Positions 29,975-47,514 of a stretch of DNA of 64,000 bases are shown in pieces. The translations under genes were made by a program, and so were the position numbers. Location of the stretch: the sequence record MT446390.1; one strand, given 5' to 3'. Source of the stretch: Escherichia phage TH12. Below the pieces are notes generated by a model. That model worked only from the letters and a program-made list of their open reading frames with translations. It was not told the DNA's origin and did no database searches. Within the stretch, counting starts at the first letter, position 1. Each line of letters starts with the position of its first letter.

Positions 29975-30660
<686 letters not shown>

Positions 30661-40747: not shown

Positions 40748-40980
40748 GTATAGCAATTTACATTAAATCAGAATCATGTGATAGTTATCTGTACACATAT
40801 GATAAAGATGTGTCAGAAGAAAAAATCAAAGACGATCTTAATATGGACCTTGATTTGTTCAGTCCTATTGCAGATTACAAACTTGCGGTCTCTAATAGTG
40901 AAAGTCCATCTAAAGAAACGCGTATTGAAGAATTTATGTCCGAATTAATGGCCAAATCATGGGACCGAGATGATGAGTAA
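40729..40980 (+). CDS. small acidic hypothetical protein
   Basis: 83 aa ORF overlapping neighbours. Confidence 0.4.
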   Translation: MQEFEMSIAIYIKSESCDSYLYTYDKDVSEEKIKDDLNMDLDLFSPIADYKLAVSNSESPSKETRIEEFMSELMAKSWDRDDE

Positions 40981-41428
40981 GAAAAATAAAGTGAAAGAAC
41001 TATCAGCCGGTATTATCTTCATGACAAAAGATAAAGAATTATTCATGGGTCGTGTAACTGGTTCTCGTCCTAAAGGTGCATTAGCTCATCGGTGGGATAT
41101 TCCTAAAGGCCGTGTCGAACCTGGCGAATCTCCTATCGAAGCCGCTATTCGTGAATGCGAAGAAGAAACTGGGTTTACACAATATGACCCTGCCTTCCTG
41201 AAAGACCTAGGTGAACATCATTACTCAGATAATAAGAATATTCATCTGTTCCTATATACCATCCCTGTAGAGCACGAGCAATTCAGAAACAGTGTTTGTA
41301 ATTCATATCATACATTCCCGGACGGACGACAGATTCCTGAATTTGATGCATTCGCTTTAATTAAACCTTCTCAATGGGAATATGTAATGGGCAAATCATT
41401 ATATAAGGTGCTCACTACCATCCTATAA
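40970..41428 (+). CDS. nudE: Nudix hydrolase NudE (e.1)
   Basis: 152 aa; Nudix box GRVEPGESPIEAAIRECEEETG; immediately upstream of e as in T4. Confidence 0.85.
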   Translation: MMSKKNKVKELSAGIIFMTKDKELFMGRVTGSRPKGALAHRWDIPKGRVEPGESPIEAAIRECEEETGFTQYDPAFLKDLGEHHYSDNKNIHLFLYTIPVEHEQFRNSVCNSYHTFPDGRQIPEFDAFALIKPSQWEYVMGKSLYKVLTTIL

Positions 41429-45964: not shown

Positions 45965-46507
45965 ATGAGAAAAGCACTACTCGCTGGTCTATTTGCTCTT
46001 TCGTTATCAGCACATAGCTCCGAGCATACTTTTAGTAATGTCCAACTCGATAACTTGAATTATGCTTATCAGTTTGGGGAACAGTTTTCTAAGGACGGAA
46101 AATTTAAAACGCATGAAAATATGCATAAGAAAGGACTTGGATACATAATGGCCGCAATACTATGGCAAGAATCATCCGCAGGTATTAATCTTAAAGATAA
46201 GAAAGGTCACCATGCGTATGGAATGTTCCAAAACTATCTACCAACAATGAGGGCAAGAATTAACCAGCTTGGTTATAATATGACTGATGCCCAAATTAAG
46301 AAAATGCTATCTAAGCGGTCTAATTCAGCAAGATGGGCTTATATCGAATTTTCTTATTGGTTAAATATACATAACGGGGATATAAGAAAAGCTATATCCT
46401 CATATAATGCGGGATGGAAGACAAGTGCTGGAAGTAAATATGCTTCTGAAGTCCTAGAAAAGGCTAATTACCTTAAATCAAATAAACTACTGGAAATAAA
46501 AGAATGA
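45965..46507 (+). CDS. secreted hypothetical protein (vs.1 position), possible lytic-transglycosylase-like
   Basis: 180 aa; N-terminal signal peptide MRKALLAGLFALSLSAHS; motif LWQESS. Confidence 0.5.
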   Translation: MRKALLAGLFALSLSAHSSEHTFSNVQLDNLNYAYQFGEQFSKDGKFKTHENMHKKGLGYIMAAILWQESSAGINLKDKKGHHAYGMFQNYLPTMRARINQLGYNMTDAQIKKMLSKRSNSARWAYIEFSYWLNIHNGDIRKAISSYNAGWKTSAGSKYASEVLEKANYLKSNKLLEIKE

Positions 46508-46851
46508 CCAAAATGTTGGCTTTAATAGTTAGCTTGGTTTCATTTAACGCTCTTGCTAATACTACATATACTGATGTAACGGAGTATACAAACAGAACGG
46601 CGTCTGATTATTGTGGTAAAAGTCAAGAGTGTAAAGTAGATTTTTCACAAAAATTGTTATATGCGTATAAAGACGGAGAAAAAGATGGGGCGTCTAGTAG
46701 GTTCAAGGCGTCTACTTTAATTAAAAGATACTATAAAAAATGGCAAATATTAGAATGCTCGGTGGCGGAACCTAAAGATAAGGCAGCATGCAATTCTATG
46801 GTGGACCGTCTAGTTGACTCTTATACTAGAGGACTTGTAGCAAGTGATTAA
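46504..46851 (+). CDS. secreted hypothetical protein (vs position)
   Basis: 115 aa; signal peptide MTKMLALIVSLVSFNALA. Confidence 0.5.
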   Translation: MTKMLALIVSLVSFNALANTTYTDVTEYTNRTASDYCGKSQECKVDFSQKLLYAYKDGEKDGASSRFKASTLIKRYYKKWQILECSVAEPKDKAACNSMVDRLVDSYTRGLVASD

Positions 46852-47311
46852 AAACTATATCAAGGGCGATATTGTCGCCCTGTTTTCTAAAGGTAATAAT
46901 ATTGCTCATGGGTGCAATTGTTTTCATACAATGGGTGCCGGTGTAGCAGGTCAATTGGCAAAGGCTTATCCAAAAATTTTAGAAGCCGATAAACTTCAAA
47001 CCGAATTCGGAGACGAGACTAAACTCGGGACTTATTCGGTTTATGAAAAATATTTTAAGACCCATAAAGCTTATTGCTTTAATCTTTATACACAGTTTGA
47101 GCCGGGACCTAATTTTGAGTACTCTGCTTTAATGAATTGTATAATAGAATTAAATGAATTCGGAAAAAATAAGATAACAAAGCCTGTAATTTATATGCCA
47201 AGAATTGGTGCAGGTATTGGTGGTGGAAACTGGGATGTCATCGAAGAGATTTTAGATACGTATTCCACTAAACTAGAAATTGTGATTGTTGATTGGGAAC
47301 CATTGTTATGA
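46844..47311 (+). CDS. macro-domain protein, TARG1/OARD1-like
   Basis: 155 aa; motifs IAHGCNCFHTMGAGVAGQ and PVIYMPRIGAGIGGGNWDVI parallel the OARD1/TARG1 macro-domain signature (AHC-S-D--MGAGIA ... MPRIGCGLD). Confidence 0.65.
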   Translation: MIKNYIKGDIVALFSKGNNIAHGCNCFHTMGAGVAGQLAKAYPKILEADKLQTEFGDETKLGTYSVYEKYFKTHKAYCFNLYTQFEPGPNFEYSALMNCIIELNEFGKNKITKPVIYMPRIGAGIGGGNWDVIEEILDTYSTKLEIVIVDWEPLL

Positions 47312-47514
47312 GCCAAACAAAAATTCTTACAGGTGCTAAATGCGAAAAATGCGAATGGCCTGTAGTTTTTGCTTTATGCAATGACGAAATGGCTTGTGAT
47401 TTTGATTATTGGTGTTACTGTTCGAACAAAGGTTGTAGCAATCATAAAGGTGAAGGGTTTTACTCAGGATTTTACCCTTACCCAGATTTCGTTAAAGAAG
47501 GTGAACCTAAATGA
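47308..47514 (+). CDS. small Cys-rich hypothetical protein
   Basis: Start at ATG 47308 (MSQTKILTGAKCEKCEWP...); multiple Cys pairs suggest Zn binding. Confidence 0.4.
   Translation: MSQTKILTGAKCEKCEWPVVFALCNDEMACDFDYWCYCSNKGCSNHKGEGFYSGFYPYPDFVKEGEPK

What the first reader, a model, noticed from the sequence alone, without database searches (positions are those of the whole stretch)
46844..47311. TARG1/OARD1-like macro-domain protein in the vs-tk early cluster
The 155-aa ORF aligns by eye to the OARD1/TARG1 macro-domain signature: GDIVALFSKGNNIAHGCNCFHTMGAGVAGQ and PVIYMPRIGAGIGGGNWDVI against human OARD1 ...AHCISEDCRMGAGIA... and ...MPRIGCGLDRLQW.... TARG1/DarG-type macro domains remove ADP-ribose from proteins and DNA. 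A phage-borne copy is a plausible counter to host ADP-ribosylating defences such as DarT, or a modulator of the phage's own Alt/Mod ADP-ribosylation.
Basis: partly seen in the sequence, partly recalled or inferred. Interest (0 to 1): 0.65.

Follow-up and report, generated by a model that had tools for sequence, protein, structure and literature searches.

The report
Phage macrodomain that undoes DNA ADP-ribosylation

The parts
46844..47311 (+). tk.4/adfM ORF: 155 aa, GTG start, TGA stop, a single stand-alone macrodomain
   Evidence: ORF; Pfam Macro; 85% identity to T4 Tk.4, no gaps; annotated CDS in Shf125875, 'similar to RB69 tk.4'
46829..46833 (+). GAGGA ribosome-binding site 10 nt upstream of the GTG start. 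It lies inside the 3' end of vs, and the vs stop (46849-46851) overlaps the tk.4 start by 8 nt.
   Evidence: GAGGA is conserved in T4, where the start codon is ATG at the same position. Its function as an RBS is inferred.
46907..46942 (+). H22-G-C-N25-C-F-H-T-M-G-A-G33: first substrate-binding loop. Asn25 aligns with SCO6735 Asn27 and G31-A-G33 is the conserved GxG.
   Evidence: H22, G23, N25, C26, G33 invariant or nearly so in 121 sequences; alignment to the SCO6735 ortholog, BT1257 and TARG1; PMC9411070 for the role of Asn27
47081..47095 (+). N80-L-Y82-T83-Q84: end of the central strand. Gln84 occupies the position of catalytic Lys84 of TARG1, which the SCO6735 paper equates with Lys80 of DarG and Gln85 of SCO6735.
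   Evidence: HMM alignment to TARG1; MAFFT with the SCO6735 ortholog, BT1257 and TARG1; Q84, N80, Y82 in 121/121; equivalence of TARG1 K84, DarG K80 and SCO6735 Q85 stated in PMC9411070
47198..47233 (+). P119-R-I-G-A-G-I-G126-G-G-N-W130: diphosphate-binding loop. Gly126 sits where TARG1 has catalytic Asp125. The loop resembles SCO6735/BT1257 (GCGLAGGxW).
   Evidence: position 126 is only Ala or Gly in 119 aligned relatives
46863..46881 (+). 8-bp hairpin AGGGCGAT-ATT-GTCGCCCT followed by GTTTTCT, inside codons 7-13. Side observation of unknown role: terminator or attenuator, mRNA end, or translation modulator.
   Evidence: terminator-like site; identical in T4; 98.4% of cells paired over 16 sequences, 2 pairs with compensatory changes; in the top 0.4-0.7% of synonymous recodings
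47308..47514 (+). tk.3 (68 aa, Pfam 'Phage zinc binding domain'). Its ATG overlaps the tk.4 stop (ATGA), which suggests translational coupling. Listed as context, not as part of the enzyme.

Best explanation
The ORF is the Mosigvirus (RB69-type) ortholog of T4 tk.4, recently renamed adfM (anti-DarT factor, macrodomain). It encodes a stand-alone 155-residue macrodomain of the ALC1-like class, which also contains TARG1, DarG, SCO6735, BT1257 and Poa1p. It is made early in infection from the vs-tk transcription unit. Its most likely job is to hydrolyse the N-glycosidic bond between ADP-ribose and thymine in single-stranded phage DNA modified by the host DarT2 toxin. That releases free ADP-ribose, restores a replicable template and neutralises the DarTG2 abortive-infection defence. 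It acts as an 'orphan antitoxin': the enzymatic half of DarG without the DarT-binding C-terminal domain. It does not use the Lys (DarG) or Lys/Asp (TARG1) chemistry. It has the Asn25/Gln84 pair of the Lys-less SCO6735 type, in which Gln positions the distal ribose and a water molecule is proposed to start catalysis. What is shown: the ORF, the fold class, orthology to T4 Tk.4, replacement of the TARG1 dyad, and (in the literature, for T4) the requirement for DarTG2 resistance. What is inferred: enzymatic removal of dT-ADPr by this protein, the SCO6735-like mechanism, and the same phenotype in this phage.
Against: No biochemical assay of T4 Tk.4 or of this protein is reported; the preprint says only that enzymatic removal 'seems likely'. 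The genetic evidence comes from T4 in a preprint, not from this phage. The catalytic Lys of DarG and TARG1 is missing. The extended Lys-rich mobile loop that the SCO6735 authors link to high activity on DNA is also missing. The SCO6735 mechanism itself rests on mutagenesis plus molecular dynamics. Family-specific invariant residues (D49, Y82, C26) have no counterpart in SCO6735 or TARG1, so the chemistry may differ again. SCO6735, DarG and TARG1 catalytic mutants also inhibit DarT by binding it, so a non-enzymatic contribution is not excluded.
Confidence: 0.78

Rival explanations
1. The protein neutralises DarT2 mainly by binding and blocking the toxin (stoichiometric inhibition) rather than by cleaning the DNA.
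For: Catalytically dead SCO6735 Q85A, DarG K80A and TARG1 K84A macrodomains still inhibit DarT activity on DNA in vitro. The other anti-DarT factors AdfA and AdfB act by interacting with the toxin.
Against: All substrate-binding and catalytic-site positions (N25, GxG, Q84, the G-x-G-I-[AG]-G-G-x-W loop) are invariant or nearly so across 121 relatives down to about 39% identity, as expected for an enzyme. The protein lacks the DarT-binding C-terminal domain of DarG: 155 aa, and NCBIfam DarG scores 33 bits against a cutoff of 250.
Confidence: 0.1
2. It is a small-molecule ADP-ribose-derivative hydrolase: ADP-ribose-1''-phosphate phosphatase as in yeast Poa1p, O-acetyl-ADP-ribose deacetylase, or a degrader of ADPr-based immune signals. 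DarTG2 protection would then be secondary or indirect.
Against: The only phenotype found for the ortholog is specific to DarTG2, whose toxin modifies DNA. Poa1p has Ser where this family has its invariant Gln84 (alignment). The 'phosphatase' labels are homology-transfer names, not tested functions.
Confidence: 0.07
3. It erases or tunes the phage's own ADP-ribosylation (Alt, ModA, ModB) of host proteins or RNAylated targets.
For: T-even phages carry three ADP-ribosyltransferases (established knowledge; mentioned). TARG1 and SCO6735 also de-modify proteins. The gene is expressed from an early cluster.
Against: No data link tk.4 to Alt or Mod. alt, modA and modB are not adjacent and lie outside this window in the syntenic Shf125875 map. 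In the preprint's account tk.4 showed reduced transposon read counts specifically on the DarTG2 host, which suggests no strong phenotype without DarTG2. Alt and Mod modify arginine, a linkage that macrodomains of this class are not known to cleave (my own knowledge, not tested here).
Confidence: 0.05

Closest known systems
T4 Tk.4 / AdfM (NP_049723.1; bioRxiv 10.1101/2025.11.20.689424)
   Same: 85% identical over all 155 residues with no gaps. Same position between vs and tk.3. Same RBS and start position. Same invariant N25, Q84 and G-x-G-I-G-x-G-N-W motifs.
   Different: GTG instead of ATG start. 23 substitutions, including G127 here against K127 in T4. The host phage is a Mosigvirus (RB69 group), not a Tequatrovirus. 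The anti-DarTG2 phenotype was tested only in T4.
SCO6735 (Streptomyces coelicolor; PDB 5E3B) and BT1257 (PDB 2FG1/2AFC), the Lys-less ALC1-like macrodomains
   Different: Only 21-30% identity. The longer mobile loop after the Gln, carrying Lys89 and Lys94 in SCO6735, is absent here. Val25 of SCO6735 corresponds to Gly23. The phage family has its own invariant D49, Y82 and C26. SCO6735 is a chromosomal, DNA-damage-inducible bacterial gene, not a phage counter-defence gene.
DarG antitoxin macrodomain (T. aquaticus 5M31/5M3E, M. tuberculosis 5M3I)
   Different: No C-terminal DarT-binding domain and no adjacent darT. NCBIfam DarG scores 33 bits against a cutoff of 250. The catalytic Lys80 is replaced by Gln.
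Human TARG1/OARD1 (PDB 4J5R/4J5S)
   Same: Best profile hit (7e-17) and best Foldseek hit. Similar length, with no insertion after the Thr-Lys/Gln position (the loop that is longer in SCO6735). Shared motifs G-D, AH, MGAG and MPRIG-x-G...W.
   Different: The catalytic dyad Lys84/Asp125 is replaced by Gln84/Gly126, and Ser35 by Asn25.
PhiKZ gp104 'AdfM' (Cell Rep 2026, PMC13309987)
   Same: A phage-encoded stand-alone macrodomain that counters DarTG2. It was given the same name independently. In vitro removal of DarT2-made ADP-ribose from DNA has been shown.
   Different: A separate lineage: about 20% identity, hhalign probability 96%. It is DarG-like with active-site N23/K78 (Lys type) and is imported into the phage nucleus.
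Yeast Poa1p (PDB 6LFQ), ADP-ribose-1''-phosphate phosphatase
   Different: Ser instead of Gln84, extra insertions (180 aa), and a small-molecule substrate.

Membership tests
Macro domain superfamily (Pfam PF01661) | Profile score above the curated gathering threshold | tested here: met
   28.7 bits against GA 22, residues 22-136 on profile positions 2-117 of 118
Macro domain superfamily (Pfam PF01661) | Alpha/beta/alpha fold with a central mixed sheet, superposable on solved macrodomains | tested here: met
ALC1-like / TARG1 class of macrodomains | Closer in sequence and structure to TARG1, DarG and SCO6735 than to MacroD-type, viral or PARG-type macrodomains | tested here: met
TARG1/OARD1 (orthologous function) | Catalytic dyad Lys84 / Asp125 | tested here: not met
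   Gln84 and Gly126 at the aligned positions. Gln in 121/121 relatives and Ala/Gly in 119/119.
DarG antitoxin (NCBIfam NF048014, equivalog) | Full-length match above the curated cutoff, including the C-terminal DarT-binding domain | tested here: not met
   33 bits against a cutoff of 250. The match covers model positions 4-146 of 338 only, and the protein is 155 aa.
DarG antitoxin | Encoded next to a darT toxin gene | tested here: not met
   The neighbours are vs and tk.3 in a phage early cluster.
DarG antitoxin | Catalytic Lys (K80 in T. aquaticus DarG) | tested here: not met
   Gln84 aligns with TARG1 K84, and PMC9411070 states that TARG1 K84 is equivalent to DarG K80. No DarG sequence was aligned directly.
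SCO6735/BT1257-type Lys-less ALC1-like macrodomains | Gln at the catalytic-Lys position, held by a conserved Asn | tested here: met
   In the MAFFT alignment with a Streptomyces SCO6735 ortholog (residue numbers V25, N27, K34, Q85, G87 match the paper) and BT1257, N25 aligns with N27 and Q84 with Q85.
SCO6735/BT1257-type Lys-less ALC1-like macrodomains | Extended mobile loop (about 5 residues longer than in DarG and TARG1) with Lys89/Lys94 | tested here: not met
   There is a gap of 5-6 columns in the window protein and T4 Tk.4 relative to the SCO6735 ortholog and BT1257. No insertion relative to TARG1 at that point.
T4 Tk.4 / AdfM orthologous group | High full-length identity and conserved position between vs and tk.3 | tested here: met
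   85% identity, 0 gaps. Gene order regB-vs.1-vs-tk.4-tk.3-tk.2-tk in both.
T4 Tk.4 / AdfM orthologous group | Required for phage growth on DarTG2-expressing hosts | not testable with these tools
   Shown for T4 only. This needs a deletion in this phage and plaque assays.
T4 Tk.4 / AdfM orthologous group | Hydrolysis of thymidine-linked ADP-ribose on ssDNA | not testable with these tools
   I found no report of this for any Tk.4-family member. It is shown for SCO6735, DarG, TARG1 and PhiKZ gp104.
Poa1p-type ADP-ribose-1''-phosphate phosphatase | Residues probed in the Poa1p structures (H23, S30, F152) | tested here: inconclusive
   The His is conserved (H22, 117/120). The position aligned to S30 is T29, which varies in the family (T/L/V/S/Q). 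Poa1p has Ser at the Gln84 position. The roles of these residues were not available to me; I had only the PDB titles.

The most novel reading that the evidence does not exclude
The T-even Tk.4/AdfM family is a third catalytic solution within the TARG1/DarG class. It is compact like TARG1 but Lys-less like SCO6735, and it has its own invariant residues (D49, N80, Y82, C26). Its substrate range may be wider than DarT2-modified thymidine. It might, for example, also reverse ADP-ribosylation by other defence transferases on DNA, RNA or protein, or it might be regulated by the conserved hairpin at its 5' end.
Probability: 0.2. Interest if true: 0.5.

Novelty: already known. Interest (0 to 1): 0.25.

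Why it matters
The result confirms that RB69-type phages carry the same anti-DarTG2 factor as T4. That fits reports that RB69 is stopped by DarTG1 while DarTG2 is described as acting on T5 and SECphi18. The useful addition is mechanistic. The phage enzyme lacks the Lys that defines DarG and TARG1 catalysis and carries the Asn/Gln pair of SCO6735. The two phage proteins both called AdfM (T4 Tk.4 and PhiKZ gp104) are therefore different lineages, probably with different chemistry. This matters for annotation, where 'phosphatase' labels are misleading, for predicting which phages escape DarTG2 (relatives were found in 2795 of 50,697 phage records), and for choosing mutants in biochemical work.

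Tried and rejected
(1) I tried to get a residue-level alignment to SCO6735 and DarG from the PDB search by querying only residues 55-155. It returned only the C-terminal loop. I then recovered a Streptomyces SCO6735 ortholog with a degenerate DNA pattern and aligned it directly. No DarG sequence could be obtained, so the DarG K80 equivalence rests on the TARG1 alignment plus the statement in PMC9411070. (3) A plain pairwise BLASTP with TARG1 and a 6-sequence MAFFT that included PhiKZ gp104 misaligned the central region, so I did not use them for residue equivalences. hhalign places PhiKZ K78 one column away from Q84, so that equivalence is approximate. (4) The sigma-70 promoter scan of 43.5-49.5 kb found fewer sites than shuffled sequence (18 against 21.3), so no promoter is claimed. 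(5) I rejected filing the protein as a DarG antitoxin (no C-terminal domain, no darT, no Lys) and as a TARG1 ortholog (dyad absent). (6) A weak second hit of the A1 profile in the window (the tk.2 ORF, 13 bits) was ignored as an unconfirmed chance-level match. (7) The 2022 DarTG paper by LeRoux and colleagues (recalled from my own knowledge, not retrieved) was not in the searchable library. The sensitivity of RB69 and T5 was taken from later papers.

Full report
Observation. The ORF listing and the raw sequence show an ORF at 46844-47311 on the + strand, with a GTG start and 155 codons. The GTG is preceded by GAGGA (46829-46833) at a 10-nt spacing. In T4 the same position carries ATG behind the same GAGGA. 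The ORF overlaps the end of vs by 8 nt, and its TGA overlaps the ATG of the next gene (ATGA at 47308-47311). This tight packing is typical of a co-translated T-even early cluster.

What the window is. A tblastn search of 50,697 phage records found relatives in 2795 of them. The best is Shigella phage Shf125875 (Mosigvirus, the RB69 group) at 99.4% identity, where the CDS is annotated 'similar to RB69 tk.4'. Pfam and PHROG scans identify the neighbours as regB, vs.1, vs, tk.3 (a phage zinc-binding domain), tk.2 and tk. T4 has the same order. The T4 protein Tk.4 (NP_049723.1, annotated 'phosphatase; contains A1pp phosphatase motif') is 85% identical and 94% similar over all 155 residues without a gap. 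The ORF is therefore the tk.4 ortholog.

Catalytic residues. They are absent. In the HMM alignment to TARG1, the family's 'YTQ' lies on 'ITK', so Gln84 lies on Lys84. The 'GAGIGGGNW' loop lies on 'GCGLDRLQW', so Gly126 lies on Asp125. Across 121 relatives down to about 39% identity, position 84 is always Gln and position 126 is only Ala or Gly. N25, D49, N80 and Y82 are also invariant.

This absence does not argue against hydrolase activity. The SCO6735 paper reports that SCO6735 has neither TARG1 catalytic residue. Its Gln85 occupies the position of TARG1 Lys84 and DarG Lys80. Q85A abolishes activity, and Asn27, which holds Gln85, is nearly essential. The enzyme removes thymidine-linked ADP-ribose made by DarT and rescues cells from DarT (PMC9411070). 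I recovered a Streptomyces SCO6735 ortholog from a genome collection with a degenerate pattern. Its numbering reproduces V25, N27, K34, Q85 and G87 of the paper. A MAFFT alignment with it, BT1257 and TARG1 puts the window's H22-G-C-N25 on H24-V-C-N27, N80-L-Y-T-Q84 on N81-M-I-G-Q85, and the C-terminal loop on GCGLAGGTW. The window protein lacks the 5-residue-longer Lys-bearing mobile loop of SCO6735 and BT1257; at that point it has no insertion relative to TARG1. It is thus compact like TARG1, with the Asn/Gln active site of SCO6735 and some invariant residues of its own.

Function. A 2025 preprint grew a T4 transposon library on a DarTG2-expressing host. It found tk.4 as the single significant hit, confirmed that a clean knockout sensitises T4 to DarTG2, and renamed the gene adfM. 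The authors state only that enzymatic removal of ADP-ribose from DNA 'seems likely'. Independent work had shown that T2 and T4 lacking the NADAR factor AdfN remain resistant to DarTG2, which implies another factor. It also showed that RB69 is sensitive to DarTG1, while DarTG2 acts strongly on T5. As a small consistency test, I searched the whole unique T5 genome in six frames with the family profile and with PhiKZ AdfM, TARG1 and SCO6735-type queries. Nothing was detected, with a best E of 0.24, while the window control scored 2.5e-67.

A second phage macrodomain, PhiKZ gp104, was also named AdfM. It removes DarT2-made ADP-ribose from an oligonucleotide in vitro and rescues cells from DarT2. 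It is a different lineage: about 20% identity, hhalign probability 96%, and active site N23/K78, so it is Lys-type like DarG.

Best explanation. The gene is an early-expressed orphan-antitoxin-like glycohydrolase that strips ADP-ribose from thymidines in phage ssDNA modified by DarT2. It probably uses a Lys-independent, SCO6735-like mechanism. The fold, class, orthology and residue pattern are shown here. The anti-DarTG2 requirement is shown in the literature for the T4 ortholog. The enzymatic step and its chemistry are inferred. I considered three rivals, all rated lower: inhibition of DarT2 by binding, small-molecule ADPr-derivative hydrolysis as in Poa1p, and erasing the phage's own Alt/Mod marks. 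None is excluded by experiment.

Novelty. The gene family has been annotated as a macro/A1pp protein in T4 for years, and its anti-DarTG2 role is already reported. The finding is correct but already known. What this analysis adds is the explicit Gln-for-Lys and Gly-for-Asp replacement, the link to SCO6735, and the point that the two 'AdfM' families are distinct.

Side observation. The terminator scan flagged an 8-bp GC-rich hairpin with a 3-nt loop at 46863-46881, inside codons 7-13 and followed by GTTTTCT. It is identical in T4. It is kept in the hairpin-bearing related viral loci whose protein reads GD[IL][VI][AS]L, at 41-98% protein identity to the window (weakened in L045 and L047). Loop third positions vary, while stem changes are compensatory, for example GGC to GGA (synonymous) paired with GCC to TCC. 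On 16 such sequences, 98.4% of cells are paired and two pairs change on both sides. In the hairpin-bearing sequences with strong stems, the stem is more stable than all but 0 to 1.7% of synonymous recodings of the same peptide; L045 and L047 are not distinguishable from their recodings. A locus with a similar peptide (KGDLLAL) lacks the hairpin. The sequences were chosen because they have the hairpin, and they are related to one another, so this is suggestive rather than conclusive. The element might be an intrinsic terminator or attenuator after vs, an mRNA-end stabiliser, or a modulator of tk.4 translation.

Noticed in passing
window 46863-46881 (+), with the T-tract to 46888: A GC-rich 8-bp hairpin followed by a T-rich tract lies inside codons 7-13 of tk.4. 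It is identical in T4 and kept, with compensatory stem changes and free loop variation, in related phages at 41-98% protein identity. It is far more stable than synonymous recodings of the same peptide. It could be a terminator or attenuator after vs, or a translation modulator.
   Followed up: partly
window 47308-47514 (+): tk.3 (68 aa) matches the Pfam 'Phage zinc binding domain' PF23895 (E 4.6e-29). Its start overlaps the tk.4 stop (ATGA). The ORF lister proposes an upstream TTG at 47293, but the annotated ATG at 47308 fits the profile and the Shf125875 annotation. Its function is unknown. It is always next to tk.4 in T4 and in this phage.
   Followed up: partly
window 40970-41428 (+): nudE-like Nudix hydrolase (Pfam NUDIX, E 5.8e-16). 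From my own knowledge, T4 NudE hydrolyses ADP-ribose among other substrates. If so, it could dispose of the ADP-ribose released by the macrodomain. No link was tested.
   Followed up: no
window 30205-30660 (+): 57B/Acb1 anti-CBASS phosphodiesterase (Pfam Acb1, E 1.3e-58). This is a second known counter-defence gene in the same window.
   Followed up: partly
window 45965-46507 (+): vs.1 (180 aa, with a signal-peptide-like N-terminus) gives only a sub-threshold match to the SLT lytic transglycosylase domain (18.8 bits against GA 21.3). PHROG 600 lists it as 'unknown function'.
   Followed up: no
L020 and L083 (related viral loci), codons 5-18 of their tk.4 homologs: Lineages that lack the window-type hairpin (peptide GDIVKIF) carry a different pair of small hairpins in the same place. 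The L020 segment folds at -10.8 kcal/mol, reached by 1 of 1000 synonymous recodings (L083 carries the same 42-nt segment). This hints that some structure at the 5' end of the ORF is generally selected.
   Followed up: no
literature, not sequence: Two unrelated-lineage phage macrodomains (T4 Tk.4 and PhiKZ gp104) were independently named AdfM in 2025-2026. One has Gln and the other has Lys at the key catalytic position, so the shared name hides a mechanistic difference.
   Followed up: yes
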